Numbered from the stretch's first letter, positions 4,257 to 49,200 are shown. The stretch is DNA of 64,000 nt from Elusimicrobiota bacterium (GCA_026388115.1 JAPLKK010000015.1:2988-66987), one strand, 5' to 3'. Notes: generated from the sequence alone by a model not told the origin. Program-made: numbers and translations.

Positions 4257-4334
4257 GCGGAACTTAGTATAGCAGGTTGCACGTGGCCTTCCCACCCGCG
4301 GAGCGACTGGCCACCGGTGCCGGCCGGGCGGCGG

Positions 4335-5396: not shown

Positions 5397-5400
5397 ACCG

Positions 5401-16459: not shown

Positions 16460-16743
16460 TTAACGGGGCCTCCAGCCAGGGCGGATCAAGCGGTATTAAA
16501 TCTAAGCCGCGGCTGATTAAAACACATTGGGCCGGGGGTGTCAATGGCGGGGCGCAAAGCGTCGCAATAAGTTGACTCAACCGCTAAAATTACGTACGAT
16601 TCTAACGGCTGGAATCTCTCGATTTTTCTTCTTTCGTTCTGCGCTCATCAGTAAGATTTCAGCGAGTCACACGGTTATTAAAAGAGATTTAATTTAATAG
16701 TGTTTTTGGGTCCCTCAAAGTTATAAACACCTGTGGAAAACCT
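16460..16743. other. Putative oriC: an AT-rich unwinding region plus DnaA-box-like 9-mers upstream of dnaA.
   Basis: AT-rich stretch at 16620-16730. TGTGGAAAA at 16732 and TGTGAATAA at 16743 are each 8/9 matches to TGTGGATAA. Gene strand bias flips here. Confidence 0.6.
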
Positions 16744-18096: not shown

Positions 18097-18288
18097 CCGG
18101 CGACGTCCCGGTGGAGAGGCTGTGGAAAAGCTGTCAAGAACTCCGGTCTTTACGGGATCGTCGCGGCGGCCTGGGGATACTGTGAATACCTCTGGCGAGT
18201 TTTCAACAGAAAAGAAGGGCGCCGCTTCGATGATGAATCCACTTTATCCACAAAATGAGGCCGCCTATGAAGGCGAGGACTATGTTCT
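18097..18288. other. dnaA-dnaN intergenic DnaA-box cluster.
   Basis: Perfect TTATCCACA at 18244-18252, plus TGTGGAAAA at 18121 and TGTGAATAC at 18181. Confidence 0.6.
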
Positions 18289-19398: not shown

Positions 19399-19403
19399 CG
19401 ACG

Positions 19404-23634
<4,231 letters not shown>

Positions 23635-28526: not shown

Positions 28527-29528
28527 CTAGTGTCGGCTGTCGGAGGCGGCGGGCTTCGAACTCTTTAGCTGTTCCCGCGGCGGCGGCATGGCCGCCGCGA
28601 GACCCTCCGAAAAGTCCATGACGTCTGAAAAACGGGGCGGGATCAGCCAGTTCCCGGCTTTATCGACATAGCCCCACCCTCCCCCCGACTTCGCCGCGGC
28701 CGCCCCGGCGGAGAAATCGGAGCAGGCGGCGAAGCGAGGCTTGAGGACCCAGCGCCCGCGCCGGTCGATGAAGCCCCAGAGGCCCTTTTCGAGGACCGCG
28801 GCGGCGCCTTCCGAGTAGGAAGCGGCGGCTTCATAGCGGAACGCCAGGCGGCTAGACCCATACCGGGAGATGAACCCCCAGCGTTCGTGAGACTTGACCG
28901 CGGAGAACCCTTCCGAAAACCCCCTGGCGTCATCAAAGACGGCGGCGACGGCCCATTTGCCCGAGTGGTCGACGAAACCGCTCTTGCCTCCCGACTCGGC
29001 CCGAGCCAGGCCGTCGGCGAACGATCCCGCGAAATCGAACGAAGGCGGGATGCGGAACTCACCCGACTTGTCGATGAAGCCCCAGCGATTCCCCTGCCTC
29101 ACCCGCGCCAGCCCCTCGGAAAAACCGCCCGCGTCGTCGAAGCGCGGCTCGATGACAGCCGCTCCCGAACGGTCGATGTAGCCCCAGCGTCCGGCGAGGC
29201 GCACCGGCGCCAGGCCGTCGGAAAAGGACCACGCGTCCTCGAAGCGCGGCGCGATCACGGTGTTGCCGGCGTGGTCGATATAGCCCCAGATGCCCCCGGA
29301 CTTGACGGCGGCGAGGCCGGCCGCGAAGCCGCGGACCGATTCGTAGCGCGCGGGAAGGACCCATCTTGCCGAGCGGTCGATGAAGCCCCAGCGGCCGCCG
29401 GGTTCGCCTTGGGCGAGGGCCAGAAGCGGGGCGAGGACGAGGATCGAAGCGAGCGAGGCGGGATGCCGCACGGCAATACTGAGTTTGCGGCGGCGCGCCT
29501 GGATTGTCAAGCGTCTCTCAAGAAGCAT
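28527..29528 (-). CDS. WG-repeat (KWG-like) secreted protein.
   Basis: Signal peptide, then about 8 tandem ~38-aa repeats of the form G.WGYID.SG..VI.PRF..A..FSEGLA.V. Confidence 0.8.
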   Translation of the reverse strand: MLLERRLTIQARRRKLSIAVRHPASLASILVLAPLLALAQGEPGGRWGFIDRSARWVLPARYESVRGFAAGLAAVKSGGIWGYIDHAGNTVIAPRFEDAWSFSDGLAPVRLAGRWGYIDRSGAAVIEPRFDDAGGFSEGLARVRQGNRWGFIDKSGEFRIPPSFDFAGSFADGLARAESGGKSGFVDHSGKWAVAAVFDDARGFSEGFSAVKSHERWGFISRYGSSRLAFRYEAAASYSEGAAAVLEKGLWGFIDRRGRWVLKPRFAACSDFSAGAAAAKSGGGWGYVDKAGNWLIPPRFSDVMDFSEGLAAAMPPPREQLKSSKPAASDSRH

Positions 29529-29560: not shown

Positions 29561-31699
29561 ATGAGCTTTCTTCTTCTCGCGATCCTCCACGCCCGGGCGA
29601 CCTGGACGGGTTTGGTCTACAGCGGCTTTTCCGATTGGTCCGGCTGGGCGGCCGGCCAGATGTTCTTCCTCGGCGTCCTCATCCTCCTCGCGGTCGCGCG
29701 CCGGCAATGGTCGTGGACGGCCCGCGCGATGCCGTGGGCGGCGGCGGCACTCGGCCTTGGCTTGGCGGCCGCGGGCTGGGGCCTGCGCGCGAGCGGCGAC
29801 ACGTTCCGGGTGTTTGGCACCGACGCGGCGCAGACGCCGTTGCGGCTGCTGCGAAGCTCGCTGCTGGCGGCCGCCGACTGGTCCCTTTTACTCGACTTGA
29901 TCTTGGCCGCGGCTGCGGTCGCCCTCTCGCTGGCCGACCTGCGCCGCCACTACGAGCCGTTGGCGCGCAAGCGCGCGCTCGCGGCGGCGGCCGCCGGGGC
30001 GGCCATGCTTTTTGCGGGCGCTTGGCGGGCTCCGAGGGATACGCGGCTGGAAAGCCCCCTTCTCGCCATTCTGCGGTCCGAAAGCGAGAGCCCGCCTCGT
30101 CTTGGCCCGGAGCGTGAAGCGGATCTGCGCTCCTTGCGGTATGGGAGCCTGGCGCTTACCGATGAGCTGAGCCGCGAACTCGCGGCCCGGCGACAATCGC
30201 TCGTCATGCGGAAATACCGGCCAAATATCGTGCTCATTATCCTCGAATCCGTCGGCTCCGCGCAGCTCCGGCCCCTAGGACGCTTGGACCCGCGTTTCAC
30301 GCCGGCGCTGTTCGACTTAAGCCGTCACGGCGTGCTCTTCCCGTCGGTCTACGCCCCCTTCCCCGGAACGGTGCGCTCGCACGTCTCGGTCATGACGGGC
30401 GGCGGGCTAATCACCTGGGGCAGCGAATACAAGGAATTGTCGCGCCGCTACCTCGGTCCCACGCTGCCGGGCGAGCTCAAGAAGCGGGGCTACCGCGCGG
30501 CGTTTTTCTCCGCGGCCCGCCTGGACGGCGAGAACTCCGACGGCTTCTACGCGGCGCTGCCGTTCGACCGCGAGTTCTTGCCCGAAAGCCTTGACGTGGA
30601 TGAATGGAAAAGGCTCGAGCTCAACAGCTGGGGCATCGACGAGCGGGGCGCGGCTAAAAGAGCGCTCGCCTGGACGCGGGCAAGCCCCCGGCCCTTCCTG
30701 CTCGTCTTCAATACGGTCGCCACCCACCATCCTTACGCGGTCCCGAACGGCATGGCTCCTTACCGCCGCGGCGGCGACGCGAAGAGTCGGTACGAGAGCG
30801 CCCTGCATTTCACCGACTCGGTCGTCGGCGACCTGGCGAAAGCCCTTGGATCCGACGGACGTGGGAACACGCTCTTGATCGTCCTGGGCGACCACGGCGA
30901 GGCCTTCGGAGACCTCCACCCGGGCAACTTCAAGGAGAACATCCGCTCTTTCGTCCTGCTGGCCGACCTGAGCAAGAAGCTCCGGCCGCTCACGGCGGAC
31001 TATCCCGCCGGCAACGGCCAGATACTCCCGACGGTGCTCGAGGCGGTGGACGGCCGGGCCCAAGCCGGCTCGCTCTTCGACGCCCGGGGCCGCATCCAGT
31101 ACTTCTTCAAGAACACCCATCCGACCCAGCTCGGCCTGCGCGACGGCCAGTGGAAGTTCATCGGCCCGATGCTCGATCCGGCCCAGGCCGAACTCTACCG
31201 CCTCGACCGGGACCCGTTCGAGAAGGACAATCTGGCTTCAACGCATCCGCTGATGGTCCGGGATTATCGCCGGCTTGCGTCGCAATGGTTCATCGATACG
31301 CAAAACGAGTTCGTCTCGCGCCTCGAGGGCTTCCAGTACGAAGGCGGAGCGGCGCTCACCGCCGGCGAGTTGGGCACCCCGGGTCCCAAGAGGCTGATGT
31401 TCGGCTGGATGGGGCCCGACGACAAGTTCGTGCCGTCGCCCTCCGGAAAGGTCCCGGCGCGCGCGAAGATCGCGGCGTTCACCAAGGACGTGCCGTACCC
31501 GAACGGCCGCCTGCTGCGCTACTGCTGGAGGGCGCCCGATGGCAGCCGCCGTGAGTTCACGCTCTTCCATTCCGGCGAGTGGAGCGACGTGTACGCCTTT
31601 CCGCAAGCCCGCTTCGCCATGACGCCCGGCCGCTGGTCGCTTCGCATCCTCGACGGAAGCCGCGCGCTTGTCGGCGGCGAGCTGACCGTGCTTCCCTGA
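29561..31699 (+). CDS. Membrane-anchored sulfatase / alkaline-phosphatase-superfamily protein (LtaS-like).
   Basis: N-terminal multi-TM region followed by a sulfatase domain (NIVLIILESVGS ... VATHHPY ... LGDHGEAFGD). Confidence 0.75.
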   Translation: MSFLLLAILHARATWTGLVYSGFSDWSGWAAGQMFFLGVLILLAVARRQWSWTARAMPWAAAALGLGLAAAGWGLRASGDTFRVFGTDAAQTPLRLLRSSLLAAADWSLLLDLILAAAAVALSLADLRRHYEPLARKRALAAAAAGAAMLFAGAWRAPRDTRLESPLLAILRSESESPPRLGPEREADLRSLRYGSLALTDELSRELAARRQSLVMRKYRPNIVLIILESVGSAQLRPLGRLDPRFTPALFDLSRHGVLFPSVYAPFPGTVRSHVSVMTGGGLITWGSEYKELSRRYLGPTLPGELKKRGYRAAFFSAARLDGENSDGFYAALPFDREFLPESLDVDEWKRLELNSWGIDERGAAKRALAWTRASPRPFLLVFNTVATHHPYAVPNGMAPYRRGGDAKSRYESALHFTDSVVGDLAKALGSDGRGNTLLIVLGDHGEAFGDLHPGNFKENIRSFVLLADLSKKLRPLTADYPAGNGQILPTVLEAVDGRAQAGSLFDARGRIQYFFKNTHPTQLGLRDGQWKFIGPMLDPAQAELYRLDRDPFEKDNLASTHPLMVRDYRRLASQWFIDTQNEFVSRLEGFQYEGGAALTAGELGTPGPKRLMFGWMGPDDKFVPSPSGKVPARAKIAAFTKDVPYPNGRLLRYCWRAPDGSRREFTLFHSGEWSDVYAFPQARFAMTPGRWSLRILDGSRALVGGELTVLP

Positions 31700-31848: not shown

Positions 31849-32238
31849 ATGAGGAGAGCCCTGCTTTTTGCCGCGGTATTGAGCATGGCCGTGGCGGCCC
31901 AAGCCGCCACGGCGAGATCCCGCGTGGTGGTCCGCGTGATGCCCGTCGAGACTTTTAGCCTGGCGCCGGTTTCTGCGGCCGGCGCCCAACTTTCTTTCGT
32001 CCACAACGCCGCCGCTCCGGTGAAGCTCACGGCCGAGTGCAGCGCGGGCATGAGCATCAAGAGCGGCGTGGGCGATTTTTCGTGCGTCCAAAACTCGGCT
32101 CGCGATGTCTTTACCCGGATTTCGAACGGCGTCCTCCGAGAGGCCGTTTCTTATTCGGCGCGAGCCGCGTCCTCCTCCGTCTCCTCCCAGGCCCCGGGCG
32201 AGGGCCTCACCGTCACCTACACCAGCGTCGAAGAGTGA
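31849..32238 (+). CDS. Small secreted protein, SCPU/Csu-pilin-like.
   Basis: Signal peptide. The C-terminal ...LTVTYTSVEE resembles the C-termini of the minus-strand subunit genes at 36-38 kb. Confidence 0.45.
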   Translation: MRRALLFAAVLSMAVAAQAATARSRVVVRVMPVETFSLAPVSAAGAQLSFVHNAAAPVKLTAECSAGMSIKSGVGDFSCVQNSARDVFTRISNGVLREAVSYSARAASSSVSSQAPGEGLTVTYTSVEE

Positions 32239-32255
32239 CTTCGTCCTCGACCCCA

Positions 32256-32318
32256 AGAGTATAAGCGACAACGGTAAAGTCAATTGTAAAACTAGTTGTT
32301 AAGAAGATTGTAACTAAG
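32256..32318. repeat. TTGT-rich imperfect direct repeat, left flank of the fimbrial cluster.
   Basis: AAGAGTATAAGCGACAACGGTAAAGTCAATTGTAAAACTAGTTGTTAAGAAGATTGTAACTAAG. Similar to 38037-38100. Confidence 0.5.
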
Positions 32319-32320
32319 CC

Positions 32321-35025
32321 TTAGGGTTCTTCGATCATCTTCAGCCGCCGCAGGCGCGGCCGGACGTTAATCCTCTCGGCGCGCGTTTGGCCCGGAGCGA
32401 GGTCGAGCTCGAAGCTCTCGCGGTCGGCCGCGTGCCGCTCAGGCAGCCCCGAGGCGTCCAGCCGCACCGTCCAGCGGCCGGGCCTGAGGTTGCGCAGCCG
32501 CAGGTTGCCGTCGGCATCGGTCGGATGGGCCACGGTTTCTTCGCCGCGCTTGAGCTCGATCCAAAGCCCCGCGACGCCGCCGGCCTCAATGAGCTTGGGT
32601 TCCTTGTCCTCCTCGGCGACGGACGGCGCGCCGCCCTCCGGCTCGTAGAGCACGACGCGGAGATCGACCTCGGCCTCGCGCACAACCCCGATATCGAGGC
32701 GCAGGGTCTTGCCTCCTTCGATGGCGGCCTTCAAGGGCATCGGGGCCTCGGTCACCAGGCCCGCGGGAAGCGTCGCGGGGTCCACCCACACGAAATGCTC
32801 TCCCTTGTCGAGCGAGCGGAAGGCGAAGCGCCCGCGACCGTCGGTCGCCGCCAGGGCGCCGCCCGCGTTGACGACCGCGTCCTTGACCCCGCGCCGGCCG
32901 GGGACGCCGGCTTCGTAGACGGAACCCGTCAGGCCGCCCACGTCGGCGCGCAAGCCGATCGGGATGTCGAACTCGTGCGAGTAAGAGCCCAGAACCGAGT
33001 CGATCCGCGGGCGCGTCGAGCCGAGATAGGCGAGGCGCTGGACCCGCACCGAGATCATATCGCTTCCAGGCAGAGTCCAGCGCAGGTAGCCGATGTAGCG
33101 CATGCTGGGCGGGGCGGGCGCCGTGGGCTCGCGGCGCTCGGCCTGAAGGTTGATCGAAAGCCCCTGCAAGGGAAGCAGGTCCGCGCCGAGCCCGGCCACG
33201 GTCTCGGGCTGGACGTCGACCGCCAGGCCCTGGGGACCGCGTTGGACGTAGGCGGAGTAGCTCTGGCTCGGGGTCGCGGCGAGCGAGAGGTCCGCCCCCC
33301 CTCCTCCCTGCTCGAAGGAATGCCCGCTCAGACGGTCCTCGAAGCGGATTGCGGCGGCCGAGAGGCTGGCGCGCAAGGCGCGCCACTGGTGTACGAGCCC
33401 CGCGGTGAGCTCGTGGGCCCGCGCGTCGAAAGAGGGCGTCGGGAGGCGGTCGATCTTGCTCTGCCAATCATAATCCAGCGTCCAGACGGTCTCGCGGCTT
33501 TGGGTGAAGCGCACCCCGGTCTTGCTCCGGTCCTCGCTGAGCGCGACGGACTTGGCCGGGTCGCGGTTCAGGTTGAACACATCCTTGTAGTACGCCTCGC
33601 TCAGCTCCCAGCGGGCGGCGAGAGGGGCGGTGAGCTGGGCGCGGGTGAGGTCGGAATCGTGATAGAAGCCGGTGTAGTCCGGTCCGCCGCGGATCTTTTC
33701 GACTCGAAGCGGAGCTCGGCCAAAAGCCCTGCCTTCAAGCGCCACGCTCCAGGCCCGGCTCCCATAAGGCGTCTTTTCCAGGGGCGCGTGGCCAAGCGCG
33801 TACTCCGCGCTGAGAGCGAGGCCCGCGATGGCGCCCGTCTTGGCCTGCAGGCTCGCGAGGTCCTGGCGCGTTGCGGCGTCCTTGCCGAGCCAGTTCGCCT
33901 TGAGCTCGAGCGGCTTGGCCGCGTAGCCGACGTAGCCCGCGCGCCCGCGTTCCGCCGCGCTTTGGCCCCGCGACTCGAAGGGGAATCCGCCGAGCTTGAA
34001 GCCTCCGGCTTCTGTCCTCCCCTGCCGTATTCGTATAGCTGGGTGAGCGGCGACAGCGAGTAGCCCAGGTCCCCGCCTTTGACCGAGCCGCGCTCAAAGC
34101 TCAGGGCGCCGTTGTATTCCTCGCGGAAGCCGAAAAGAGGCAAGTTCGGGTCGATGGGGCGCTGGAGGTGGAAATCGAGCCGCCGGCGCCCGGCGTCGTC
34201 GAGCGCGCCGCTGCCGGTCCAGTCGAACTGCGCGGCGTTCTTGTCCTGCTCCCGGCCTCCTTGCGCGGTGAGGCGCGACCTCAGGCGGCGGTAGGGGTCG
34301 AGCCTCTGCGAGATGCGAGGGATGATGTTGACCAGGGTCGCCGCCCTCGTCTCACCGCCGCGTTCCCCGGCCAGGCTCGCCGTGAGCCGGAGCTGGTGCG
34401 TCAGGGGCTGTACCGCCGCGGCGTCGGTGCGGACGATGACGGCGATCTCGTGCGATGCGCCCGGCGCGAGCGGGAAGGCCTTCGCGTCGGCCTCCGCCTT
34501 GAGATTGTCGGAGCTCGCCACGTCCACGACCGCTTGGCCGCCGACGTTGCCGCGGTTGACGAGCGCGAAGCGGGCCGTGTAATCGCGTCCGGCCACGACC
34601 AAGGAAGGGGAGGCGAGCGGCGTGAGCTCGAGCTCGAGCACCCGCTGGACCTTGAGGCCCACGGTCGCCTCGACCCACGGGTCCGTCCGGCGGTGGACGT
34701 GGACCCGGTAGGTCAGCACATACAGGCCCGCCGGAGCGAGCGAGGGCCGCGGCAGGCGGAAGGAAACGAGGCGGACCTCTTCGCCGCCGGCCGGCAGGCG
34801 GAACGGCTCCTCGATGGAGACGAGACGCCAGCCCTCGGGCAGGTCGATCTCGTCGTCGAGCAGGCGCGGCACGGGGCCGGCGTTGCGCACGACGAAGCCC
34901 AAGGTGACGATCTCGCTCGGCCGCGCCTCGCCCGGCGGTCCCGGGGAGGCGGAGACCTTCAGGCCCGTGATCTGCCCGTGAGCCGTCCCGGTCAACAGCG
35001 CGAGGAGCGCGAGGCCCTTTAGCAA
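32321..35025 (-). pseudogene. Large secreted protein, putative fimbrial usher-like. It is split by a frameshift near 34010-34030.
   Basis: The two ORFs 33601..35025 and 32321..33745 overlap. Good coding continues in the -1 frame upstream of 33745. The junction is LYEYGRGG | TEAGGFKLGGFPFE, and the N-terminal signal peptide is MLKGLALLALLTGTAHG. Confidence 0.45.
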
Positions 35026-35031
35026 GATGAC

Positions 35032-35841
35032 CTAGAGCTTGAGTTCGGTCCGGGCTCCGAAGACATCGTCTTCGCCGCCGTCGATGACGATGCGGCCGGT
35101 GTACTTGCCCGGCATGACGCCGGGGAGTTCTATCTCTTGCTTGACGCAGGTCCCCGGATAGACCCGCATCTTACGGCCGTGGAACAGGCCGGCCTTCGCT
35201 CCTCTGGAATCGAAAAGCTCCAAGGAGACCTCAGGCACGATCCAGCGTTGTCCCGAGTTCTTGATCTCCAATTCAAAGACGCTCTTGCCGTCTTTCTTGA
35301 CCAACTCCTTCTTGGGCAAGGTCACGTTGCTCTTGCCGCCCGTCCCGACTTGAGTCACGATCTGCACGCCGTAGCGGATGATCTGGCGTATGCCGACCTG
35401 GACCTGCTTCTCCTGGGCCCCGGGCGAGGGAGGCGCGGCGGCCTCCTCGATCATGATGAGCGACCAGTAGGTTCCGCTGAGAGTCGCCGTGGACTTTTGC
35501 GGGACGCGGATCGTGTAGTTGAAGGAGGCGGTCTCATTGGGCTGGATCGTCAGGAAATCGCGGCTCAACCCGATCCATTTGGCGTTGGAGCGCGGGTCCG
35601 TGCCCGGTTTGCCGTAGAGGTTGCGGCCGTCGCAGAAAAAGAGATAGTCGGTCTGATAGATCTTGGCCTGGGCGGGCGCGTCGCCCGTGTTCTTGAGGTG
35701 CAGAGTCCCGTCGTAGGCCTTGCCCGGCTCGACCGTGTACTCCTGCGTGAGCCCGTCCGCCACGGAAATGCCCGCGCGCGCCGGGCGCGCAAGAACGGGA
35801 AAAACCAGCAGCGAGACAAGGGCCGCCCGGCGCGCTCTCAT
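35032..35841 (-). CDS. Putative periplasmic pilus chaperone (PapD-like).
   Basis: Signal peptide and a two-domain size (~269 aa). GTLHLKNTGDAPAQAKIYQTDYLF resembles the PapD N-terminal strand. Overlaps the upstream subunit gene (ATGA). Confidence 0.45.
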   Translation of the reverse strand: MRARRAALVSLLVFPVLARPARAGISVADGLTQEYTVEPGKAYDGTLHLKNTGDAPAQAKIYQTDYLFFCDGRNLYGKPGTDPRSNAKWIGLSRDFLTIQPNETASFNYTIRVPQKSTATLSGTYWSLIMIEEAAAPPSPGAQEKQVQVGIRQIIRYGVQIVTQVGTGGKSNVTLPKKELVKKDGKSVFELEIKNSGQRWIVPEVSLELFDSRGAKAGLFHGRKMRVYPGTCVKQEIELPGVMPGKYTGRIVIDGGEDDVFGARTELKL

Positions 35842-36326
35842 GGCTGGATCACCGTGAACAGGAGTCCCGTCGTGTAGGTTCCGGGCGGGACCTGAAGCGA
35901 GAGGCCATCGAGCTTGACCTGGACTCCCACGGTGGGGTTTCCCTTCTCCGTGATGAAGGTCTGCGGCGAGGTCGTCACCAGCAGATAAGCCGTTCCTCCG
36001 CTGACGGTGCCGTTGTTCGAGGTCATCTGCACGTAGATGTTGAGGTTGGAGTTCCAGCCGGTATCCACCCGCTGGACGGTCACGTGGCTGTTGCCGCTGC
36101 CGCTGCCGCTGCCGCTGCCCACCGCGATGCTGAGCTGGTCGGTCGGGCTCGCGACGGGATTGGACAGGTTGCTGCCGGCCCCGGAGGCCAAGTTGGACGC
36201 TCCGACGGTCTGGCTCCACGAGCCCGTCACCGTTATCGTCACCGCCGCCAAGGCGGATCCAAGCCCGATGCCCAAGGCGACAGTCGTGAGCACCGTGACC
36301 ATGGACCCCCAAGCTCGCGTGCGCAT
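35838..36326 (-). CDS. Secreted fimbrial subunit-like protein containing a (GS)n linker.
   Basis: Signal peptide, a GSGSGSGSG stretch encoded by (GCCGCT)4, and the C-terminal LLFTVIQP. Confidence 0.45.
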   Translation of the reverse strand: MRTRAWGSMVTVLTTVALGIGLGSALAAVTITVTGSWSQTVGASNLASGAGSNLSNPVASPTDQLSIAVGSGSGSGSGNSHVTVQRVDTGWNSNLNIYVQMTSNNGTVSGGTAYLLVTTSPQTFITEKGNPTVGVQVKLDGLSLQVPPGTYTTGLLFTVIQP

Positions 36327-36823
36327 CAGTTCGTGCTCGTGAACGTCACCACAAAAGTAAAGTTAGTATTAGCCGAGACCGGGGTGCCGCTCGCCGTGCA
36401 GGAGGCGCCGTAGGTGACCGCCTTGTTCGAGTAGGCCCCGGCCGAGATGCCGGTCCAGACGCTCTGAGCGGGTTGGGCCGCGCCGCCGTTCACCAGCGTC
36501 ATCGTCCCCACTCCTCCGGCGACCGCCACCGTCAGGGTGATGTCGTTGCCGCTGGGTGGGGACGCCACCTGCGCGGTCACTTTGAGCGCCGTTGCGGAGT
36601 TGTGCGACAGGTTGAGCGCGGCGGCGGTGTCGGAGGCGCCGGTCAGGCTGTTGCTGCCCGCGGTTCCGGAGAGGCTGATGCCGGCGCCGTTGGTGACCGA
36701 CAGCTCGTTGATGGCGCTCAGCGTGAGGCTGATGTTGGCCGTGCCGCTGGTGGCGGCCCGGGCTTGCGGCGAGAACGCGGCGGAAAGCGCCAGCAGCGCG
36801 ACGGCGACGCGGAACGTTCTCAT
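36326..36823 (-). CDS. SCPU/Csu-like fimbrial subunit.
   Basis: Signal peptide MRTFRVAVALLALSAAFSPQARA. KVTAQVASPPSGNDITLTVAVAGG, and the C-terminal TNFTFVVTFTSTN. Confidence 0.5.
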   Translation of the reverse strand: MRTFRVAVALLALSAAFSPQARAATSGTANISLTLSAINELSVTNGAGISLSGTAGSNSLTGASDTAAALNLSHNSATALKVTAQVASPPSGNDITLTVAVAGGVGTMTLVNGGAAQPAQSVWTGISAGAYSNKAVTYGASCTASGTPVSANTNFTFVVTFTSTN

Positions 36824-37329
36824 GAGCTCACGCTCGTGAAGGTCACGGTATAGACGAAATTCGTCGAGGCGGAGACCTTCGTTCCGGTCACGGTGCATCG
36901 GGCGCCGTAGGTCACGGTGCGGTTGCTGAAAGCGCCAGCGGCGATGCCGGTGTAGACGTCCTGGCTCGCCTGGGCCGTCCCATTGCTGACCAACGTCTTC
37001 GTCCCGGCCCCGCCCGCCACGGCGACGGTCAGGGTGATGTCGTTGCCCGTCGGCGCGGTCGTCGCCTGCGCGGTGATCTTCTTAAGGCCGGTGCTGTTTT
37101 GGGTGTAGTTAAGCCGCGCCGTGGAATCGTTGACCGGCCCGAGCACCGCGCTCCCCGCCGGGTTGGCGATGGAACTGTCCAGCGTGATGGTCCCGCCGTT
37201 GGTGATGGCGAGGAGATCGAGCAGCGGGACCGTCACCGATTCGCTCGAATTGCCGCTGTTTCCAGCGAAGACCACGGAGGTAAGCCAGAGGAGGGCCGGT
37301 GCAAAAAGAAGCCCGAGGAGCGTCCTCAC
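36820..37329 (-). CDS. SCPU/Csu-like fimbrial subunit.
   Basis: Paralog of the previous gene. KITAQATTAPTGNDITLTVAVAGG, and the C-terminal TNFVYTVTFTSVSS. Confidence 0.5.
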   Translation of the reverse strand: MRTLLGLLFAPALLWLTSVVFAGNSGNSSESVTVPLLDLLAITNGGTITLDSSIANPAGSAVLGPVNDSTARLNYTQNSTGLKKITAQATTAPTGNDITLTVAVAGGAGTKTLVSNGTAQASQDVYTGIAAGAFSNRTVTYGARCTVTGTKVSASTNFVYTVTFTSVSS

Positions 37330-37458
37330 GTCACGGAGAATACAAAAATCTTGGGCGCGGGAGGGGCCGAGATCCTCCCGCGCCCGTCTGCGCGTCCTTG
37401 CCTCGTGCTTCTTACGTCTTACCTCCCGATCTGGCGCTGCTCAGCTCGCGTTCGCGGC

Positions 37459-38001
37459 TTACTGGTCGACGCTGGTGAAGGTGATGGTGAAGGCGAAGTT
37501 CGTCGCCGACCCGACCGGCGTTCCGGCGGCCGTCGCCTGCGCCCGGTATGTCACGACCTCGGTCGGATAGACACCGGCCGCGATGGCGGTGACGGCATCC
37601 TGGGCGCTGGCGGCGCTCCCGGCCTGGTACAGGGTCACGTAGGACCCCCCGCCGAAGCCGACCAGAGCATCCAGCTTGATGTCGTTTGTGCCCGAAGGGA
37701 CGGTCGTGGCTTGGGCCGTGATCTTCTTGTTCACGTTCTTATTGTGGATGTAGGACAGCCGCGCCGTGGTGTCGGTCGCCGGGCCCAGCAGCCCGCTCAC
37801 AGTCGGGTCCGCCTGGCTGTTGTCCAGGGTGATGGAGCCGCCGTTGGTCACGGTCATCTTATCCACCAGGCCCACGGACACGGTGACGTTCGAGGTCCCG
37901 CTTGCGGCAAGCGCGGGGAACCCGGAGACGATCAGCGACAACGACAGGACGGCGACGGCGAGCTTCTTCGCGAGGCTCTCGGGCTTCATGTTCTTGGTCA
38001 T
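37459..38001 (-). CDS. SCPU/Csu-like fimbrial subunit (first gene of the cluster).
   Basis: ATG preceded by a GAGGAGG SD. Signal peptide. KITAQATTVPSGTNDIKLDALVGFGGG, and the C-terminal TNFAFTITFTSVDQ. Confidence 0.5.
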   Translation of the reverse strand: MTKNMKPESLAKKLAVAVLSLSLIVSGFPALAASGTSNVTVSVGLVDKMTVTNGGSITLDNSQADPTVSGLLGPATDTTARLSYIHNKNVNKKITAQATTVPSGTNDIKLDALVGFGGGSYVTLYQAGSAASAQDAVTAIAAGVYPTEVVTYRAQATAAGTPVGSATNFAFTITFTSVDQ

Positions 38002-38036
38002 CTCGGCGCTCCTCCTCGGCTGAGGCAACTTCCATG

Positions 38037-38192: not shown

Positions 38193-39623
38193 ATGATCCG
38201 GAAAATCGACGATTTTCGCTTCGAAATCCCGCAAGAAGGCGCCATGCGCGTGCCCGGCCGCATCATCGCCTCCGAGAAGCTCATCGGCAAGATCGACTCC
38301 GAGCGCGTCGCCGAGCAAGTGTCCAACGTGGCCACCCTTCCCGGCATCGTGGGCTACTCCCTAGCCATGCCGGACGCCCATTGGGGTTACGGTTTTTGCG
38401 TCGGCGGCGTCGCCGCCTTCGACGGCGTCGATGGGATCGTAAGCCCCGGCGGCGTCGGCTACGATATCGGGTGCGGAGTCAGGCTGTTGCGCACGGACCT
38501 GGAGGCCAAGAACGTGGCGCAGTACCTGCCGCGTCTTATGGACGGCCTGTTCCATGCCGTGCCCTCGGGCGTCGGGGCGGGCGGGGCTCTCCGTGTGCGC
38601 GCCGAGGAGATGAAGCAGGTCTTTCGCTTCGGCTCCAAATGGGCGGTGTCGCGCGGGCTCGGCGACGCGGACGATCTGACGGTCTGCGAGGACGGCGGCT
38701 TCTTGGGGGATGCGGGAGAGGACGTGCCCTCCGAGCGCGCGGTCGAGCGGGGTGCGGACCAGATCGGGACGCTGGGCAGCGGCAATCACTTCATCGAGGT
38801 GCAGGAAGTCGATGAAGTCTACGAGAAGGGCGTCGCGGCGGTCTTCGGGCTGTTCCCCGGGCAGCTGGTCGTCCTGATCCACACCGGCTCGCGCGGCTGC
38901 GGCTACCAGATCTGCGCGGATTTCCTGCAGGTCATGCGCAAGGCCGGACAGAAATATGGGATCCGCCTGCCGGATGCCCAGCTCGCCTGCGCGCCGCTGT
39001 CTTCCCCCGAAGCGCAGGAGTATTTTGCGGCGATGCGCGCGGGCTCGAACTTCGCGCGGGCGAACAGGCAAGCGATCACCCATCGCGTGCGGGAGGTGTT
39101 CGAGCGCACGCTCCAGCGCGGCCCGGCGGATCTCGGCATCCGCGTGGTCTACGACGTGAGCCATAATCTCGCGAAGATGGAGACGCACGTCTGGGAAGGC
39201 AGGGAGCGCAAGCTGTGCGTCCACCGCAAGGGCGCCACGCGAGCCTTCCCGGCCGGCCATCCCGATGTGCCCGAGCCGTACCGCGCCGTCGGTCAGCCCG
39301 TGCTGCTGCCGGGTTCGATGGGGACGCATTCCTTTGTCCTGATCGGCACCGAGCAGGCGCTGAAGGAAACGTGGGGAACGACGGCGCACGGGGCGGGGCG
39401 CAGGATGAGCCGCACGCAGGCGGCCAAGCGCGTGAGCGGCGCCGAGCTTATGCGGCAACTCGCGGCCGAGGGGATCATCATCCGGACCGATTCCTTGCGC
39501 GGGCTGGCGGAAGAGGCGCCGTTCGCCTATAAAGACGTCTCGGAAGTCGTCGACGCCTGCCATCAGTCGGGGATATCGCGCAAGATCGCGAGGATGAGGC
39601 CGCTGGGAGTGGTGAAAGGCTGA
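38193..39623 (+). CDS. rtcB: RNA-splicing ligase RtcB.
   Basis: The RtcB signature is present throughout (PDAHWGYG, GSGNHF, HNLA..E). An AGGAG SD precedes the ATG. Confidence 0.93.
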   Translation: MIRKIDDFRFEIPQEGAMRVPGRIIASEKLIGKIDSERVAEQVSNVATLPGIVGYSLAMPDAHWGYGFCVGGVAAFDGVDGIVSPGGVGYDIGCGVRLLRTDLEAKNVAQYLPRLMDGLFHAVPSGVGAGGALRVRAEEMKQVFRFGSKWAVSRGLGDADDLTVCEDGGFLGDAGEDVPSERAVERGADQIGTLGSGNHFIEVQEVDEVYEKGVAAVFGLFPGQLVVLIHTGSRGCGYQICADFLQVMRKAGQKYGIRLPDAQLACAPLSSPEAQEYFAAMRAGSNFARANRQAITHRVREVFERTLQRGPADLGIRVVYDVSHNLAKMETHVWEGRERKLCVHRKGATRAFPAGHPDVPEPYRAVGQPVLLPGSMGTHSFVLIGTEQALKETWGTTAHGAGRRMSRTQAAKRVSGAELMRQLAAEGIIIRTDSLRGLAEEAPFAYKDVSEVVDACHQSGISRKIARMRPLGVVKG

Positions 39624-39633
39624 CCGGGGCATT

Positions 39634-40173
39634 TTGCTAGAATCAAGCATCGTGCGCTTCGCTATTTTCGCCCTCAGCCTATTGCTCGCGCTCCCCGCTT
39701 CGGCGGAGCTGGTGCTCAAAAGCGTTTCCTGGCAGATGACTGCCGCGGGAGGCCCTCCCGGAGCTCATCGGTCGTTCAAGCCCATCGAGAAATGGGTCCA
39801 GCCGGCGGTGGCGCGTCTGGCAAAGAGGCCACGGGCGTTGGTCACCGTGGAGAACCGCGGCCCGAGCGCGGTGGACGGCATGGTGCTCCGCTACGCCCTC
39901 TCGGCGCGCTTGGTGAAGGCGGGAACCGAGGGACAGCCGGGCGTCTGGACCGTCCCCTTTTACCTGAATGAGCGGCGCGTCCCTCGCGTGCGGGCCGGCC
40001 AGGTGAAGGAGATCCCGCTCAACGATCTCGTGCTCGATGTTTTCTTGAAGAAGGTCTATCGCGCTGGCTACTGGCCGGACGCGCTGAAGATCGAAGTCAT
40101 GGTCGAGCCGCGCGCGGGCGAAGGCCTGGAGCAGCGCATGCTCGAAGAGACTCTGCCGGTGGTGCCGAAATGA
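39634..40173 (+). CDS. Hypothetical secreted protein.
   Basis: Signal peptide (FAIFALSLLLALPASA). Start is ambiguous: TTG at 39634 or GTG at 39652. Confidence 0.4.
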   Translation: MLESSIVRFAIFALSLLLALPASAELVLKSVSWQMTAAGGPPGAHRSFKPIEKWVQPAVARLAKRPRALVTVENRGPSAVDGMVLRYALSARLVKAGTEGQPGVWTVPFYLNERRVPRVRAGQVKEIPLNDLVLDVFLKKVYRAGYWPDALKIEVMVEPRAGEGLEQRMLEETLPVVPK

Positions 40174-41471
40174 ACGACCCGAAGCTCCTGCGCGCCGACC
40201 CGGACGCCGCCCGCAAAGGGATCCAGTCGCGCGGCGGCCGCTACCTGCCCGCGCTCGAGGAATTCTACGGCCTCGAGCAGAAGCATCGCGCGCTGCTCAA
40301 GGAGGTGGAGGAGCTGCGCGCCCGCCGCAACGAGTCCAGCGCCCGCATCGGCAAGGCGATGGCGGCCAAGGAGGAGGGCGTCGCCGCCTCCCTCAAGGCC
40401 GAGGTGGGCCGGCTCAAAGTCGAGATGGGCGCGAAGGAGAAGGAGCTGGAGGCGTTGTCGGCCAAGGTGCGCGACCTATCGCTCTCCATCCCCCATCTCC
40501 CCCACGCGAGCTGCCCGGCCGGGAAGTCCGCGGCGGACAACGTGGAGCGGCGCAAGGGCGGGCCGGCGCCCTCGACGGCAAAGGCGCTGGACCACCAGAC
40601 GATGGGCGAGAAGCTCGGCATCCTCGACATGGAGGCGGCGGCGAAGCTCTCCGGCTCGCGCTTCGTCCTGCTCAAGGGCGCGGGGGCCCGGCTCGAGCGG
40701 TCGGTGGTCAATTTCATGCTGGACCTTCATACGACCAAGCACGGCTACCTCGAGGTCGCGCCGCCTTACCTCGTGCGCCCCGAGGTGCTCGTGGGCACCG
40801 GTCAGCTTCCCAAGTTCCGCGAGGACATGTATGCCACCGCTGACTCCTCCTCCGAGGGGGGCGCCCGCGAGCTCTTCCTCATCTCGACCTCCGAGATCCC
40901 GCTGACCAACCTCGTGCGCGAATCCATCCTGGAGGAAGCCAAGCTTCCCTTGCGCTTCACGGCGGGCACGCCGTGCTTCAGGCAGGAAGCCGGCTCCTAT
41001 GGCAAAGACGTCCGCGGCATGATCCGCGTGCACCAGTTCAACAAGGTCGAGCTGGTATGGGTCACGCGTCCCGAGGATTCCCTGGACGCCCTGGAGCGGC
41101 TGACGAGCCACGCCGAGGCGGTGCTTTCCGCGCTCGAGCTGCCGTACCGGGTCCTCGAGCTTTGCACCGCCGACATCGGCTTCGCGTCGCGCAAGACTTA
41201 CGATCTGGAGGTCTGGATGCCGTCGGAGGGGCGGTACCGCGAGATCTCTTCGTGCTCCGATTGCGGCGATTTCCAGGCGCGGCGCATGAACGCGCGTTTC
41301 CGGCGCGCGAAGGGCGCAGCCGAGCTCGTCCACACGTTGAACGGCAGCGGCGTGGCGGCGGGACGCTTGGTCGCCGCGATCCTCGAGAACTTCCAGAAGC
41401 CCGACGGCTCCCTGGCCGTTCCGGCGGCGCTGGTGCCGTACTTCGGAGCCGACTCGATCCGGCCCGCGTGA
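40170..41471 (+). CDS. serS: Seryl-tRNA synthetase.
   Basis: N-terminal coiled-coil arm plus class II aaRS core motifs. Confidence 0.92.
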   Translation: MNDPKLLRADPDAARKGIQSRGGRYLPALEEFYGLEQKHRALLKEVEELRARRNESSARIGKAMAAKEEGVAASLKAEVGRLKVEMGAKEKELEALSAKVRDLSLSIPHLPHASCPAGKSAADNVERRKGGPAPSTAKALDHQTMGEKLGILDMEAAAKLSGSRFVLLKGAGARLERSVVNFMLDLHTTKHGYLEVAPPYLVRPEVLVGTGQLPKFREDMYATADSSSEGGARELFLISTSEIPLTNLVRESILEEAKLPLRFTAGTPCFRQEAGSYGKDVRGMIRVHQFNKVELVWVTRPEDSLDALERLTSHAEAVLSALELPYRVLELCTADIGFASRKTYDLEVWMPSEGRYREISSCSDCGDFQARRMNARFRRAKGAAELVHTLNGSGVAAGRLVAAILENFQKPDGSLAVPAALVPYFGADSIRPA

Positions 41472-47339: not shown

Positions 47340-48325
47340 GGCGCCAGCCACACGCCGTCGCAGTGGCCCTCGTTGTGCAGCTGGTCGCGCGCGACCGCGC
47401 GGACCCACGCGCCGCGCGAGGAAAGCTTCGAGCGCCGGACCGTCATCAAGAACGGCGGCTCGCGCCGGTACGCGGAGAGCCGTTCCCAGTCGAGCTGGTC
47501 CGTGGAGCTCTCCAGCCAGGCGGCTTCGATCCCATCCCCGTCGGCGGTGAAGCGGTAGACGAAATCCGCTCCGGCGGGCGCCGCGGCGCATTCGCGCACG
47601 GCGACCGTCGCGTCGTTCGGCGGCACGAGCTTGATGGCGAGAGCGGGCTTGAAGTTGTTGAGCGGCGTCTCGAGCGTCCCTTCAGCCCTTCGCGGCGCGA
47701 CGCCGCCGAGCGACCGGTTGTTCCAGGCCCGAGGCTCCTCGCTGGCGTTCGAGCGTTCTTCCAACGCCGCAAGGATCGGCGCGCTCGAGGACCCGACGAG
47801 ATAACGTGTGGTGGACCAGACGATCAGATAGTTCGGGCCCGAGAAGCTGATCATGCCTGCCGGCACTTCCGTCCAGAACCATACCGCGTGGCCCGTTCCC
47901 GGCATGTAAACGTGCGGGTCGTCCTCGAGAGGGATGTCGGCCGTCTCGGTCAGGAAGTAGCTCCGCTCGGCCGTGAAGGAAGGCGTCGGCGCGATGGCCA
48001 TGTAGATCTTGCCCGGGATCACTTCGCGTTCCCAGGGCCGCCCGCCCGGCTTTGCGCGGGTCTTGGCCCGCCCGATCTTCGCCCCGATGAACGCGCGCGA
48101 GTACTCGCCGATCGGCGCGGGCGGCAGCGCGACGATCCAAGCGTTGTTGAAGCCGATATACCAGTTCTCATCGGGCCCGCCGTCTGCGAAACGACCGAAG
48201 TCATTGATGTTGGAGTTCAAGGACACATAGACTGGCAATCGGCTCCGCTGCTCGGTCGAAGGGCCTTCCGTCAGTACTTCCTGCGCAAGGACTGAATATG
48301 CAAATAATGCTGTAAATATAATCAT
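47336..48325 (-). CDS. Hypothetical secreted protein.
   Basis: Signal peptide MIIFTALFAYSVLAQ. The stop overlaps the asd start. Confidence 0.45.
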   Translation of the reverse strand: MIIFTALFAYSVLAQEVLTEGPSTEQRSRLPVYVSLNSNINDFGRFADGGPDENWYIGFNNAWIVALPPAPIGEYSRAFIGAKIGRAKTRAKPGGRPWEREVIPGKIYMAIAPTPSFTAERSYFLTETADIPLEDDPHVYMPGTGHAVWFWTEVPAGMISFSGPNYLIVWSTTRYLVGSSSAPILAALEERSNASEEPRAWNNRSLGGVAPRRAEGTLETPLNNFKPALAIKLVPPNDATVAVRECAAAPAGADFVYRFTADGDGIEAAWLESSTDQLDWERLSAYRREPPFLMTVRRSKLSSRGAWVRAVARDQLHNEGHCDGVWLAP

Positions 48326-49200
48326 TTATTGATAATACCAACCACGCGCTCAAAGTCTTCGAGGCTATAGAAGTGGATGGTCAGAGTGCCCCTTCCCCCC
48401 TTCTTCGTCCTGATGGCCACCTTCGTCCCCAACCGTTGCTGGAGCGCGGCTTCCACTTCGCGCGTATCGGCGTCCTTGGCGGCGCCCGGCTTCTCGCGTC
48501 TTGGCTTGGGAGAAGGCATGCTTCCGTTCGCCTTAGCCACGAGTTCGTCTATGTCACGGACCGATAGCTTTCCCTCGATGGCGGCCATGAAGATGCGGTG
48601 GCGTTCCACCGGATCCGGGCACTTGAGAAGAGCTCGACCGTGCGCTTCCTGCAGGTCGCCATGCAGTATCGCCTTCTGCATTTCGTCAGGCAAGTCCAGG
48701 ATATGCAAGGTATTGGATATAGATTGCTTGGATTTTCCGACCATTTCGGCGACGCCATTCTGGTCTAGCCCGAATTCTTTCTGAAGACGGCAATACCCCA
48801 GGGCAGCCTCCACTGCGTTGAGATTCTCCCTTTGCAGGTTCTCCGCCAAGGATAGCGACAAGCGGTGCTTGTCCTCGGCCGGCTGACGGATCACGACCTC
48901 GATTTCGGTAAGCCCGGCAAGCTCGCAAGCGCGCAGTCGACGTTCGCCTGCGATGAGTTCGTAGGTCCCATCTGCGTCTGCAGAAACCACGATAGGTTGG
49001 GCTAGGCCGTGCAGCTTGATCGAGCCAGTGAGTTCGCTCAGCGCCTCGGCGTCGAAATGGCGGCGAGGCTGAAGGTGGTTGGGCCTGACTTTGGAGATGG
49101 GCACTCGCAGAGGTCTCGCCTCCAATGACGCCGGCTCGGCGGTCGCTACGGGTTGCGAAGGGATCAATGCTTCAAGTCCACGCCCTAGTGCGTTTCTCAT
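48322..49200 (-). CDS. parB: ParB/Spo0J partition protein.
   Basis: ParB box II (LIAGERRLRAC), HTH region, C-terminal dimerisation region. GC is ~58%, lower than the local average. Confidence 0.88.
   Translation of the reverse strand: MRNALGRGLEALIPSQPVATAEPASLEARPLRVPISKVRPNHLQPRRHFDAEALSELTGSIKLHGLAQPIVVSADADGTYELIAGERRLRACELAGLTEIEVVIRQPAEDKHRLSLSLAENLQRENLNAVEAALGYCRLQKEFGLDQNGVAEMVGKSKQSISNTLHILDLPDEMQKAILHGDLQEAHGRALLKCPDPVERHRIFMAAIEGKLSVRDIDELVAKANGSMPSPKPRREKPGAAKDADTREVEAALQQRLGTKVAIRTKKGGRGTLTIHFYSLEDFERVVGIINK

What the first reader, a model, noticed from the sequence alone, without database searches (positions are those of the whole stretch)
31849..38028. Putative archaic (SCPU/Csu-like) chaperone-usher fimbrial cluster with a frameshifted usher
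On the minus strand, four small signal-peptide proteins (37459-38001, 36820-37329, 36326-36823, 35838-36326) are followed by a ~269-aa two-domain periplasmic protein (35032-35841). After that comes a ~900-aa secreted protein (32321-35025). Most of these genes overlap by ATGA. Three subunits share N-terminal K(I/V)TAQ...GNDITLTVAVAGG and C-terminal TNF.(F/Y)T.TFTS(V) motifs. These resemble spore-coat-protein-U / CsuA/B pilins (compare CsuA/B ...FTVAIDGG... and C-terminal ...TLLVTVNF). A fifth similar small gene (31849-32238) lies on the opposite strand at the distal end. The large gene is split. Frame A reads ...SPLTQLYEYGRGG, and good coding resumes in another frame as TEAGGFKLGGFPFESRGQ... 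A single missing base near the CCTCCCC run at 34010-34030 would restore one ORF. The break may be an assembly error, a true pseudogene, or a slippage-prone switch.
Basis: partly seen in the sequence, partly recalled or inferred. Interest (0 to 1): 0.55.

Follow-up and report, generated by a model that had tools for sequence, protein, structure and literature searches.

The report
Uncharacterised pilus-like envelope gene cluster
This Elusimicrobia gene cluster looks organised like a chaperone-usher pilus operon, but its chaperone-like protein is a relative of the Gram-positive WxL-interacting protein and its outer-membrane component is not an usher, so it represents a widespread, undescribed three-part surface-assembly system; the break in its large gene is a 10-bp deletion absent from a near-identical independent assembly.

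Summary
There are four secreted small proteins (A, B, C, D), a 269-aa two-domain periplasmic protein (E), a split ~904-aa protein (F) and a fifth small gene (G).

No SCPU, PapD or Usher profile matches any protein, and profile-profile comparisons with Csu, Fim, Mrk and Pef proteins are negative.

- **E** is a remote homologue of the Gram-positive WxL-interacting protein (DUF916+DUF3324). hhalign gives 95-96%, and its best structural match is PDB 9i25.
- **Small subunits:** the model of subunit B weakly resembles donor-strand-complemented pilins. The single-copy subfamily next to E (D here) aligns with WxL domains at 75%.
- **F** has two Ig-like domains, a porin-like barrel and two CarboxypepD_reg domains. 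Relatives add SPOR or LysM modules at the C-terminus.

The order subunits-E-F holds in about 80 loci from many diderm phyla, and 434 species genomes encode E relatives. No Pfam or NCBIfam model and no paper I found covers it.

The frameshift is a 10-bp deletion (AGCCGAGCTT). An independent assembly with one other difference in 5.5 kb carries an intact gene. It is an assembly error or recent variant, not a slippage switch.

The parts
37459..38001 (-). Subunit A (180 aa). It is an S1-type secreted small protein, first in the operon, and the candidate major subunit.
   Evidence: ORF. S1 profile E = 7.5e-25. It is followed by a terminator-like hairpin.
37344..37385 (-). Terminator or attenuator-like hairpin between genes A and B. 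It has a 12-bp GC stem (37374-37385 and 37353-37364), a 9-nt loop, and then AAGAUUUUUGUAUU.
   Evidence: Fold. The same hairpin in L001 keeps pairing through a G-C to A-U double change. The simple scan missed it because the loop exceeds 8 nt.
36820..37329 (-). Subunit B (169 aa), S1-type.
   Evidence: AF2 model with pLDDT 80. Its best PDB matches are donor-strand-complemented pilins at weak E-values.
36326..36823 (-). Subunit C (165 aa), S1-type. It overlaps B by ATGA.
35838..36326 (-). Subunit D (162 aa, or 154 aa from 36302). It is S2-type, the single-copy subfamily that sits immediately upstream of E.
   Evidence: S2 profile E = 5.8e-45. S2 lies directly before E in 40 of 45 loci. S2 vs WxL domains by hhalign: 75%, 97 columns, with controls at 0.1%.
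35032..35841 (-). E (269 aa). It is a periplasmic two-Ig-domain, chaperone-like protein, a remote homologue of WxLIP (DUF916+DUF3324) without the C-terminal membrane helix.
   Evidence: Profile vs PDB sequences hits EfmWxLIP1 at 2.9e-5. AF2 pLDDT 91.9. Foldseek best match 9i25_C at 3.9e-14. hhalign 96.1%, and 94.8% without signal peptides.
34013..35025 (-). F, 5' part. It encodes a signal peptide, two Ig-like domains (NEW3-like, then a PapD-like-clan domain) and the start of the barrel region, up to the frameshift.
34012..34013 (-). Frameshift junction. 10 bp (AGCCGAGCTT) are missing relative to the intact allele.
   Evidence: Alignment with L091 (one other difference in 5543 bp). The window is also 10 nt shorter than L001/L002 at this site.
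32321..34012 (-). F, 3' part. It encodes the porin-like beta-barrel region and two C-terminal CarboxypepD_reg-like domains.
   Evidence: Porin_4 scores 39.7 bits against a cut-off of 27 in the L023 orthologue, residues 268-541.
31849..32238 (+). Subunit G (129 aa). It is a divergent S1-like subunit, convergent with F, and lacks about 20 residues of the N-terminal region.
   Evidence: S1 profile E = 3.4e-9. It is conserved at the same place in L001-L005. A same-strand subunit follows F in many Ignavibacteria and Bacteroidota loci.

Best explanation
The cluster encodes a three-component envelope system (S subunits, E, F) of a conserved but undescribed kind. It is found in many diderm phyla.

**Proposed mechanism**
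1. The small subunits are exported by Sec. These are the S1 paralogues A, B and C, the single-copy S2 subunit D, and the outlying G.
2. In the periplasm they are bound by E, a soluble two-Ig-domain homologue of the Gram-positive WxL-interacting protein.
3. E holds them by inserting a strand of its conserved hairpin (residues about 123-165) into the subunit beta-sandwich.
4. The subunits are then delivered to F.
5. F is an outer-membrane protein with two N-terminal Ig-like domains, a porin-like barrel and two C-terminal beta-sandwich domains. In relatives these domains are tied to peptidoglycan by SPOR or LysM modules.
6. F exports or anchors the subunits as a surface fibre or array. A is the abundant subunit, set by a terminator-like hairpin after its gene.

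**Shown:** the genes, their paralogy, the conserved gene order, the E-WxLIP homology, the domain make-up of F, and the absence of SCPU/PapD/Usher membership.

**Inferred:** strand complementation, polymerisation, export through F and surface location.

**The break in F.** In this window F is interrupted by a 10-bp deletion. This is most likely a local assembly or consensus error, or else a recent variant. It is not a regulatory switch.
For: **Conserved architecture.** S(2-8 copies)-E-F occurs in about 80 loci from Elusimicrobia, Planctomycetota, Desulfobacterota, Chromatiaceae, Ignavibacteria, Zixibacteria, Bacteroidota, Armatimonadota, Verrucomicrobiota and Spirochaetales. Only S, E and F are conserved across the loci.

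**E and WxLIP.** The links are the PDB profile hit at 2.9e-5, Foldseek at 3.9e-14 and hhalign at 96.1%, or 94.8% without signal peptides. WxLIP_PGBD matches 11 of 61 members and WxLIP_HBD 3 of 61. WxLIP is predicted to complete the WxL sandwich with a hairpin strand (PMC10599100), and a WxLIP-WxL complex is deposited as 9i25. The invariant residues of E flank the matching hairpin.

**Subunits.** The top PDB matches of the model are almost all donor-strand-complemented fibre subunits: PapA, CfaB, FimG, FimF, Caf1, CanA, the Sulfolobus thread and bundling pili. S2 vs WxL by hhalign is 75%, against 0.1% for reversed and shuffled controls.

**F.** CarboxypepD_reg matches 47 of 47 members, NPCBM_assoc 39 of 47 and Porin_4 8 of 47 (above cut-off in one). 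OmpG-type and OMP_b-brl hits fall in the middle region. SPOR x2 (89 bits) or LysM x2 sit at the C-terminus.

**Operon features.** The hairpin after gene A has a compensatory change in L001. The gene order matches the csu operon and WxL clusters.

**Frameshift.**
Against: - No experiment or structure of a complex exists for this family.
- The subunit model is only moderately confident (pLDDT 80). No Foldseek match reaches E <= 0.001, and the WxL chain of 9i25 is not in the top 50.
- S1 subunits show no significant sequence link to WxL: 9.5%, or only 17 C-terminal columns.
- No structure of F could be predicted, so barrel size, a plug and a translocation channel are unknown.
- WxL proteins are not known to polymerise, so homology to that system argues as much for a non-filamentous complex.
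Confidence: 0.52

Rival explanations
1. A non-filamentous, WxL-like envelope complex. S proteins are monomeric or hetero-oligomeric surface or peptidoglycan-associated proteins. E stabilises them, as WxLIP is proposed to stabilise WxL. F is the outer-membrane anchor tied to peptidoglycan. No pilus is made.
For: - E is a homologue of WxLIP, not of PapD.
- S2 aligns with WxL domains.
- WxL domains and WxLIP are described as peptidoglycan-binding surface proteins rather than polymers (PMC10599100, PMC9772566).
- F relatives carry SPOR or LysM peptidoglycan-binding modules.
Against: - The top structural matches of the subunit model are polymerising, donor-strand-complemented subunits.
- There are 2-8 paralogous subunits per locus plus one specialised single-copy subunit, and a terminator-like hairpin follows the first gene. 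These are typical of fibre operons.
Confidence: 0.28
2. A genuine but highly divergent archaic (sigma-type, SCPU/Csu-like) chaperone-usher fimbrial operon.
For: - The gene order is the same as csuA/B-A-B-C-D-E.
- CsuA/B is the top, but non-significant, PDB sequence hit of the subunit profile (E = 0.074).
- The E model resembles CsuC, FimC and Caf1M at fold level.
- There is a weak F-usher alignment in the first post-barrel domain (16%).
Against: - No SCPU, PapD or Usher Pfam or NCBIfam matches at meaningful E-values.
- hhalign gives subunits vs SCPU 1-2%, F vs ushers including CsuD 1.7%, and barrel alone 1%.
- E vs PapD-like chaperones is 1.9% once signal peptides are trimmed.
Confidence: 0.07
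3. An uptake or porin complex. F is a substrate channel and the small proteins and E are periplasmic or surface binding factors, echoing the original proposal that Csc/WxL clusters serve carbohydrate utilisation.
For: - Porin_4 and OmpG-type hits fall in the F barrel.
- NEW3 and CarboxypepD_reg domains are common in glycan-handling proteins.
- Siezen et al. 2006 (PMC1534035) proposed a carbohydrate role for the Gram-positive clusters.
Against: - No transporter, glycoside hydrolase or sugar-metabolism gene is conserved beside the cluster.
- Flanking genes differ between loci.
- The subunit fold matches are to fibres, not binding proteins.
Confidence: 0.07
4. The break in F is a programmed, slippage-prone phase-variation switch.
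For: The break lies in a variable loop after the conserved YSLSPLT..YGRG motif. Several other genomes have split F genes (L006, L012, L028, L052, L053).
Against: - The lesion is a 10-bp deletion, not a change in a repeat tract. The longest run at the site is G4.
- The other split F genes break at different positions.
- The only two differences from the independent assembly in 5.5 kb lie about 30 bp apart, which points to a local assembly or consensus problem or a one-off mutation.
Confidence: 0.04

Closest known systems
WxL / WxLIP (Csc) surface-protein clusters of Gram-positive bacteria (Enterococcus, Listeria, Lactiplantibacillus; PDB 9i25, 9i1y; PMC10599100)
   Same: - E is a detectable homologue of WxLIP across both Ig-like domains.
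- The gene order is the same: small protein(s), then the two-domain protein, then a large protein.
- The S2 subunit aligns with both WxL-motif strands.
- Both systems have a link to peptidoglycan, here through SPOR or LysM on F relatives.
   Different: - The hosts are diderm.
- E has no C-terminal membrane helix and is predicted to be soluble in the periplasm.
- The subunits lack the Trp-x-Leu motifs and match no WxL Pfam model.
- There are 2-8 subunit paralogues.
- The large partner is an outer-membrane barrel, not a WxL or LPXTG surface protein.
Archaic (sigma) chaperone-usher pili, for example Acinetobacter Csu and Pseudomonas CupE
   Same: - The operon order is subunits, chaperone-like protein, outer-membrane protein, extra subunit.
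- Both have a two-Ig-domain periplasmic protein with fold-level resemblance.
- The subunit model is pilin-like.
- The outer-membrane protein has beta-sandwich domains before and after a barrel.
   Different: - No SCPU, PapD or Usher membership by Pfam, NCBIfam or hhalign.
- The F barrel is porin-like by sequence.
- F carries CarboxypepD_reg, NEW3 and optional SPOR/LysM domains that ushers lack.
Other donor-strand-complemented fibres (archaeal threads, bundling pili, cannulae, TasA, Ena)
   Same: They appear among the best structural matches of the subunit model.
   Different: Those fibres assemble without a dedicated chaperone and outer-membrane platform. The matches are weak (E 4e-3 to 3e-2).

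Membership tests
Archaic (sigma) chaperone-usher fimbriae (Csu-like) | Subunits carry the spore-coat-protein-U domain (PF05229). | tested here: not met
   No SCPU hit for the 5 window subunits at E <= 1 or for 140 relatives at E <= 0.1. hhalign vs 7 Csu-type SCPU proteins gives 2.3% for all S and 1.0% for S2. The best PDB sequence hit is CsuA/B, but at E = 0.074.
Archaic (sigma) chaperone-usher fimbriae (Csu-like) | Periplasmic PapD-like chaperone (PF00345/PF02753). | tested here: not met
   No PapD hit for E. PapD_N matches 1 of 61 relatives at E = 0.072. hhalign reached 51-81% only while signal peptides were included and fell to 1.9% after trimming. Only fold-level resemblance remains (Foldseek about 1e-8, TM 0.4-0.59).
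Archaic (sigma) chaperone-usher fimbriae (Csu-like) | Outer-membrane usher (PF00577, with plug and PapC-type terminal domains). | tested here: not met
   Usher matches 2 of 47 F relatives at best E = 0.011. hhalign vs 5-7 ushers gives 16% over 53 columns, or 1.7% with CsuD. The barrel alone gives 1.0% and the C-terminal part 3.3%. The fold of F was not predicted.
Archaic (sigma) chaperone-usher fimbriae (Csu-like) | Operon order: subunits, chaperone, usher, tip subunit. | tested here: met
   The window order is A, B, C, D, E, F, G. This compares with csuA/B, A, B, C, D, E in L098.
Archaic (sigma) chaperone-usher fimbriae (Csu-like) | Subunits have an incomplete Ig fold completed by a donor strand from the chaperone or the next subunit. 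| tested here: inconclusive
   The monomer model (pLDDT 80) is a beta-sandwich whose best PDB matches are donor-strand-complemented pilins, but none reaches E <= 0.001. No complex could be modelled.
WxL / WxLIP (Csc) cluster | Two-domain WxLIP protein (DUF916/PF06030 plus DUF3324/PF11797). | tested here: met
   Met as remote homology. hhalign gives 96.1%, or 94.8% without signal peptides, over 227-229 columns. The PDB profile hit is 2.9e-5 and Foldseek gives 3.9e-14. The Pfam models are hit only weakly: best E-values are 2.7e-4 for PF06030 (11 of 61 members) and 3.6e-3 for PF11797 (3 of 61).
WxL / WxLIP (Csc) cluster | WxLIP is anchored by a C-terminal transmembrane helix. | tested here: not met
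   E ends directly after the second Ig-like domain (...FGARTELKL) with no hydrophobic tail. Relatives are also about 265-280 aa.
WxL / WxLIP (Csc) cluster | Partner proteins carry a WxL domain with two Trp-x-Leu motifs (PF13731). | tested here: inconclusive
   No WxL Pfam hit in 140 subunits. S1 subunits have K-I-T and T-F-T at the aligned places. S2 aligns over 97 columns with both motif strands at 75%, against 0.1% for controls. S1 reaches only 9.5%.
WxL / WxLIP (Csc) cluster | Monoderm host, with cluster partners that are LPXTG or large WxL surface proteins. | tested here: not met
   The third component is an outer-membrane barrel protein. Hosts are mostly diderm phyla.
Outer-membrane beta-barrel proteins (porin superfamily) | A central region matching porin or OMP barrel profiles. 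| tested here: met
   Porin_4 matches 8 of 47 F relatives, best at 6.7e-10 and 39.7 bits against a cut-off of 27 (residues 268-541 of the L023 orthologue). OMP_b-brl, Porin_OmpG_1_2 and PDB OmpG give weak hits in the same region. The window protein itself has no direct barrel hit.

The most novel reading that the evidence does not exclude
The S-E-F clusters are a previously unrecognised class of chaperone-assisted surface fibre of diderm bacteria. They use a WxLIP-type chaperone and a non-usher outer-membrane platform. They are the diderm counterpart, possibly the ancestor, of the Gram-positive WxL/WxLIP system. That would imply WxL proteins are themselves assembled by strand complementation.
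Probability: 0.4. Interest if true: 0.85.

Novelty: new variant of a known kind. Interest (0 to 1): 0.68.

Why it matters
If the reading is right, chaperone-assisted strand-complementation assembly is not confined to the PapD/usher lineage. A second lineage would exist in at least ten diderm phyla.

- **Scale.** 434 species-level genomes encode E relatives. The E profile finds 789 protein clusters (at 50% identity) at E <= 1e-30 and 2535 at E <= 1e-10.
- **Link to Gram-positive biology.** The system would tie the poorly understood WxL/WxLIP adhesion clusters to an outer-membrane system and give their partnership a mechanistic frame.
- **Annotation gap.** No Pfam or NCBIfam model covers S or E at present.
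- **Testable hosts.** Cultured carriers exist, including Thiocapsa and Thioflavicoccus.

The frameshift result is also a practical caution. A pseudogene call in a metagenome-assembled genome can be checked against independent assemblies.

Tried and rejected
- **Pfam and NCBIfam on all eight window ORFs** found no informative family except weak Ig-like and CarboxypepD_reg hits.
- **E vs PapD-like chaperones** first gave hhalign 51-81%. I rejected this after trimming signal peptides, when it fell to 1.9%. The E-WxLIP link survived the same control.
- **E as a bridge between WxLIP and PapD** was dropped for the same reason. WxLIP vs PapD-like is 2-3%.
- **Homologue searches for subunit B and for F** returned only 14 and 7 proteins. 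F therefore could not be given a useful alignment for structure prediction, and the second prediction went to a subunit.
- **F N-terminal region vs E** was weak (43-47%). Its second domain vs the PapD N-domain reached 69.7% over 67 columns, which I treat as a hint only.
- **The amphipathicity scan of F** suggests roughly 16-18 strands between residues 245 and 695, but it is too crude to count strands.
- **Sigma-70 promoter scan:** none found.
- **Literature searches** for a description of this diderm family found nothing.

Full report
**Observation**

On the minus strand of the window lie, in order:
- A, 37459-38001
- B, 36820-37329
- C, 36326-36823
- D, 35838-36326
- E, 35032-35841
- a large gene F, 32321-35025, split between two frames

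A convergent small gene G lies at 31849-32238 on the plus strand. All seven products start with Sec-type signal peptides and none has a lipobox.

D and G are more distant relatives. The window is an Elusimicrobia metagenome-assembled genome: E is 100% identical to the NCBI entry NTX64_01080.

- Pfam and NCBIfam give no SCPU, PapD or Usher hit for any of the proteins at E <= 1.
- Scanning 140 subunit relatives, 61 E relatives and 47 F relatives one by one changes nothing. SCPU matches 0 of 140. PapD_N matches 1 of 61 at E = 0.072. Usher matches 2 of 47 at best E = 0.011.
- I built reference profiles from real chaperone-usher operons: fim, mrk, an afa-like operon, pef, a Pantoea operon and three Acinetobacter csu operons.
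- hhalign gave subunits vs Csu SCPU proteins 2.3% and 1.0%, and F vs ushers 16% or 1.7%.
- E vs PapD-like chaperones gave 51-81%. That figure came from aligned signal peptides. With mature sequences it falls to 1.9%.
At E = 0.074 it is not significant.

**What E is**

A profile of 61 E relatives hits the Enterococcus faecium WxL-interacting protein (EfmWxLIP1, PDB 9i25/9i1y) at E = 2.9e-5.

The AlphaFold model of E (pLDDT 91.9) has WxLIP as its best structural match (Foldseek E = 3.9e-14). PapD-like chaperones follow at about 1e-8 with TM 0.4-0.59.

Against six WxLIP proteins fetched from Firmicute plasmids, hhalign gives 96.1% over 229 columns. Without signal peptides it gives 94.8% (E = 5e-8).

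E lacks the C-terminal membrane helix of WxLIP. The published analysis of WxLIP predicts that a hairpin strand of its first domain inserts into the WxL domain and completes its beta-sandwich (PMC10599100). In E the invariant residues (G123, W126, S127, M130, E132, R156, Q160) lie on the two strands of the matching hairpin, around a low-confidence loop.

**What the subunits are**

Across related loci the small proteins fall into two subfamilies:
- **S1** is multi-copy. A, B and C belong here, and G weakly (E = 3.4e-9).
- **S2** is single-copy and lies immediately upstream of E in 40 of 45 loci. D belongs here (E = 5.8e-45).

The AlphaFold model of B (pLDDT 80) is a beta-sandwich. Its best PDB matches are almost all donor-strand-complemented fibre subunits: PapA, CfaB, FimG, FimF, Caf1, cannulae, the Sulfolobus thread and bundling pili. 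E-values are only 4e-3 to 8e-2, and none reaches 0.001.

S2 aligns with WxL domains over 97 columns at 75%. Its W-R-V strand falls on the first WxL motif and its C-terminal Y-T-V strand on the second. Reversed and shuffled controls give 0.1%. S1 reaches only 9.5%.

The subunits therefore have a pilin-like fold and a plausible but unproven deep link to WxL domains.

**What F is**

The F family has the following parts:
- two N-terminal Ig-like domains. The first is NEW3-like. The second gives MSP, ASH, Cep192 and HYDIN hits.
- a central region of about 450 residues with porin-type hits. Porin_4 scores 39.7 bits against a cut-off of 27 in one orthologue. OMP_b-brl, OmpG-type and PDB OmpG give weaker hits.
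- two C-terminal CarboxypepD_reg-like domains
- in the longer relatives, two SPOR domains (89 bits) or two LysM domains at the very end

SPOR and LysM bind peptidoglycan, so the C-terminal domains should be periplasmic. F thus has the general layout of an usher, with beta-sandwich domains on both sides of a barrel, but no detectable sequence relationship to ushers. I could not predict its structure.

**Distribution and conservation**

- A scan of one genome per species found E relatives in 434 genomes. The 80 best loci come from Elusimicrobia, Planctomycetota, Desulfobacterota, Chromatiaceae (Thiocapsa), Ignavibacteria, Zixibacteria, Bacteroidota, Armatimonadota, Verrucomicrobiota, Spirochaetales and a few genomes labelled Bacillota.
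- In essentially all loci with enough flank the order is 2-8 subunit genes, then E, then F, often with one more subunit gene after F.
- No other gene is conserved. Two-component regulators are frequent neighbours.
- The E profile finds 789 clusters at E <= 1e-30, 2535 at <= 1e-10 and 7489 at <= 1e-3 among 1.84 billion representatives.
- Literature searches found no description of this diderm family.

**Operon detail**

Between A and B lies a 12-bp GC-rich hairpin followed by AAGAUUUUUGUAUU (37344-37385). In the 83%-related locus L001 the same hairpin keeps its pairing through a G-C to A-U double change. From general knowledge of fimbrial operons such as pap, a terminator after the first subunit gene raises the ratio of major subunit to assembly proteins. 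This suggests that A is the abundant subunit.

**The frameshift**

- Syntenic relatives have an intact F of 903-910 aa.
- Two independent Logan assemblies (SRR25046533 and SRR20698641) carry the same locus.
- The first spans the break and differs from the window at only two places in 5543 bp. One is a 10-bp indel and the other a C/T mismatch about 30 bp downstream.
- There F reads straight through: ...YGRGGQAELEAGGFKLGGFSFESRGQ...
- The window lacks AGCCGAGCTT between positions 34013 and 34012.
- There is no homopolymer longer than four bases and no tandem tract.
- The other split F genes in related genomes break elsewhere.

The two differences cluster in an otherwise identical 5.5 kb. That points to a local assembly or consensus error, or to a very recent variant. 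Without reads I rate a local assembly or consensus error somewhat more likely than a real variant, and a programmed switch very unlikely (about 0.04).

**Verdict**

It is wrong in family.

The best-supported reading is a new variant of strand-complementation assembly. It is homologous through E to the Gram-positive WxL/WxLIP clusters and pairs with a novel barrel protein. The main rival is a non-filamentous WxL-like envelope complex. Polymerisation, export through F and surface location are inferences that need multimer modelling and experiments in a cultured carrier.

Noticed in passing
window 37344-37385 (-): There is a terminator-like hairpin with a U-tract between the first and second subunit genes. 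It is conserved in L001 with one compensatory base-pair change.
   Followed up: partly
L056, L058, L061, L047 (F C-termini) and L070: Longer F orthologues end in two SPOR domains or two LysM domains. This places the C-terminus in the periplasm on peptidoglycan. The window F lacks these modules.
   Followed up: partly
alignments A6 (WxL) and A11 (Csu SCPU subunits): hhalign of Gram-positive WxL domains against Csu-type SCPU pilins gave 63% over 38 columns, around the conserved xFG motif. This may hint at a deep WxL-SCPU link. It rests on tiny alignments and had no controls.
   Followed up: no
L006, L012, L028, L052, L053: F is also split into two ORFs in five other metagenome-assembled genomes, at different positions. 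These are probably assembly frameshifts in a long GC-rich gene.
   Followed up: no
L003 5132-5836 and many Ignavibacteria/Bacteroidota loci (e.g. L051, L057, L061, L069): Response regulators and histidine kinases often sit next to the S-E-F cluster. None is adjacent in the window.
   Followed up: no
window 38193-39623 (+), 40170-41471 (+); L001 14106-14522: RtcB RNA ligase and seryl-tRNA synthetase flank the cluster here and in L001/L002. L001 also has an archease gene nearby. This synteny is with close relatives only.
   Followed up: no
window 28527-29528 (-), 29561-31699 (+): A secreted WG/KWG-repeat protein and a large membrane sulfatase-like (LTA-synthase-like) protein lie just beyond gene G. 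They are not conserved with the cluster in other loci.
   Followed up: no
window 4001-6000, 12001-14000, 16001-20000, 48001-50000: GC content swings from 0.72 to 0.58 against a window mean of about 0.66. These regions were not examined.
   Followed up: no
L010, L032, L033, L070: S-E-F clusters with a barrel-containing F occur in genomes labelled Bacillota or Clostridia. These are either diderm Firmicutes or mis-binned contigs.
   Followed up: no
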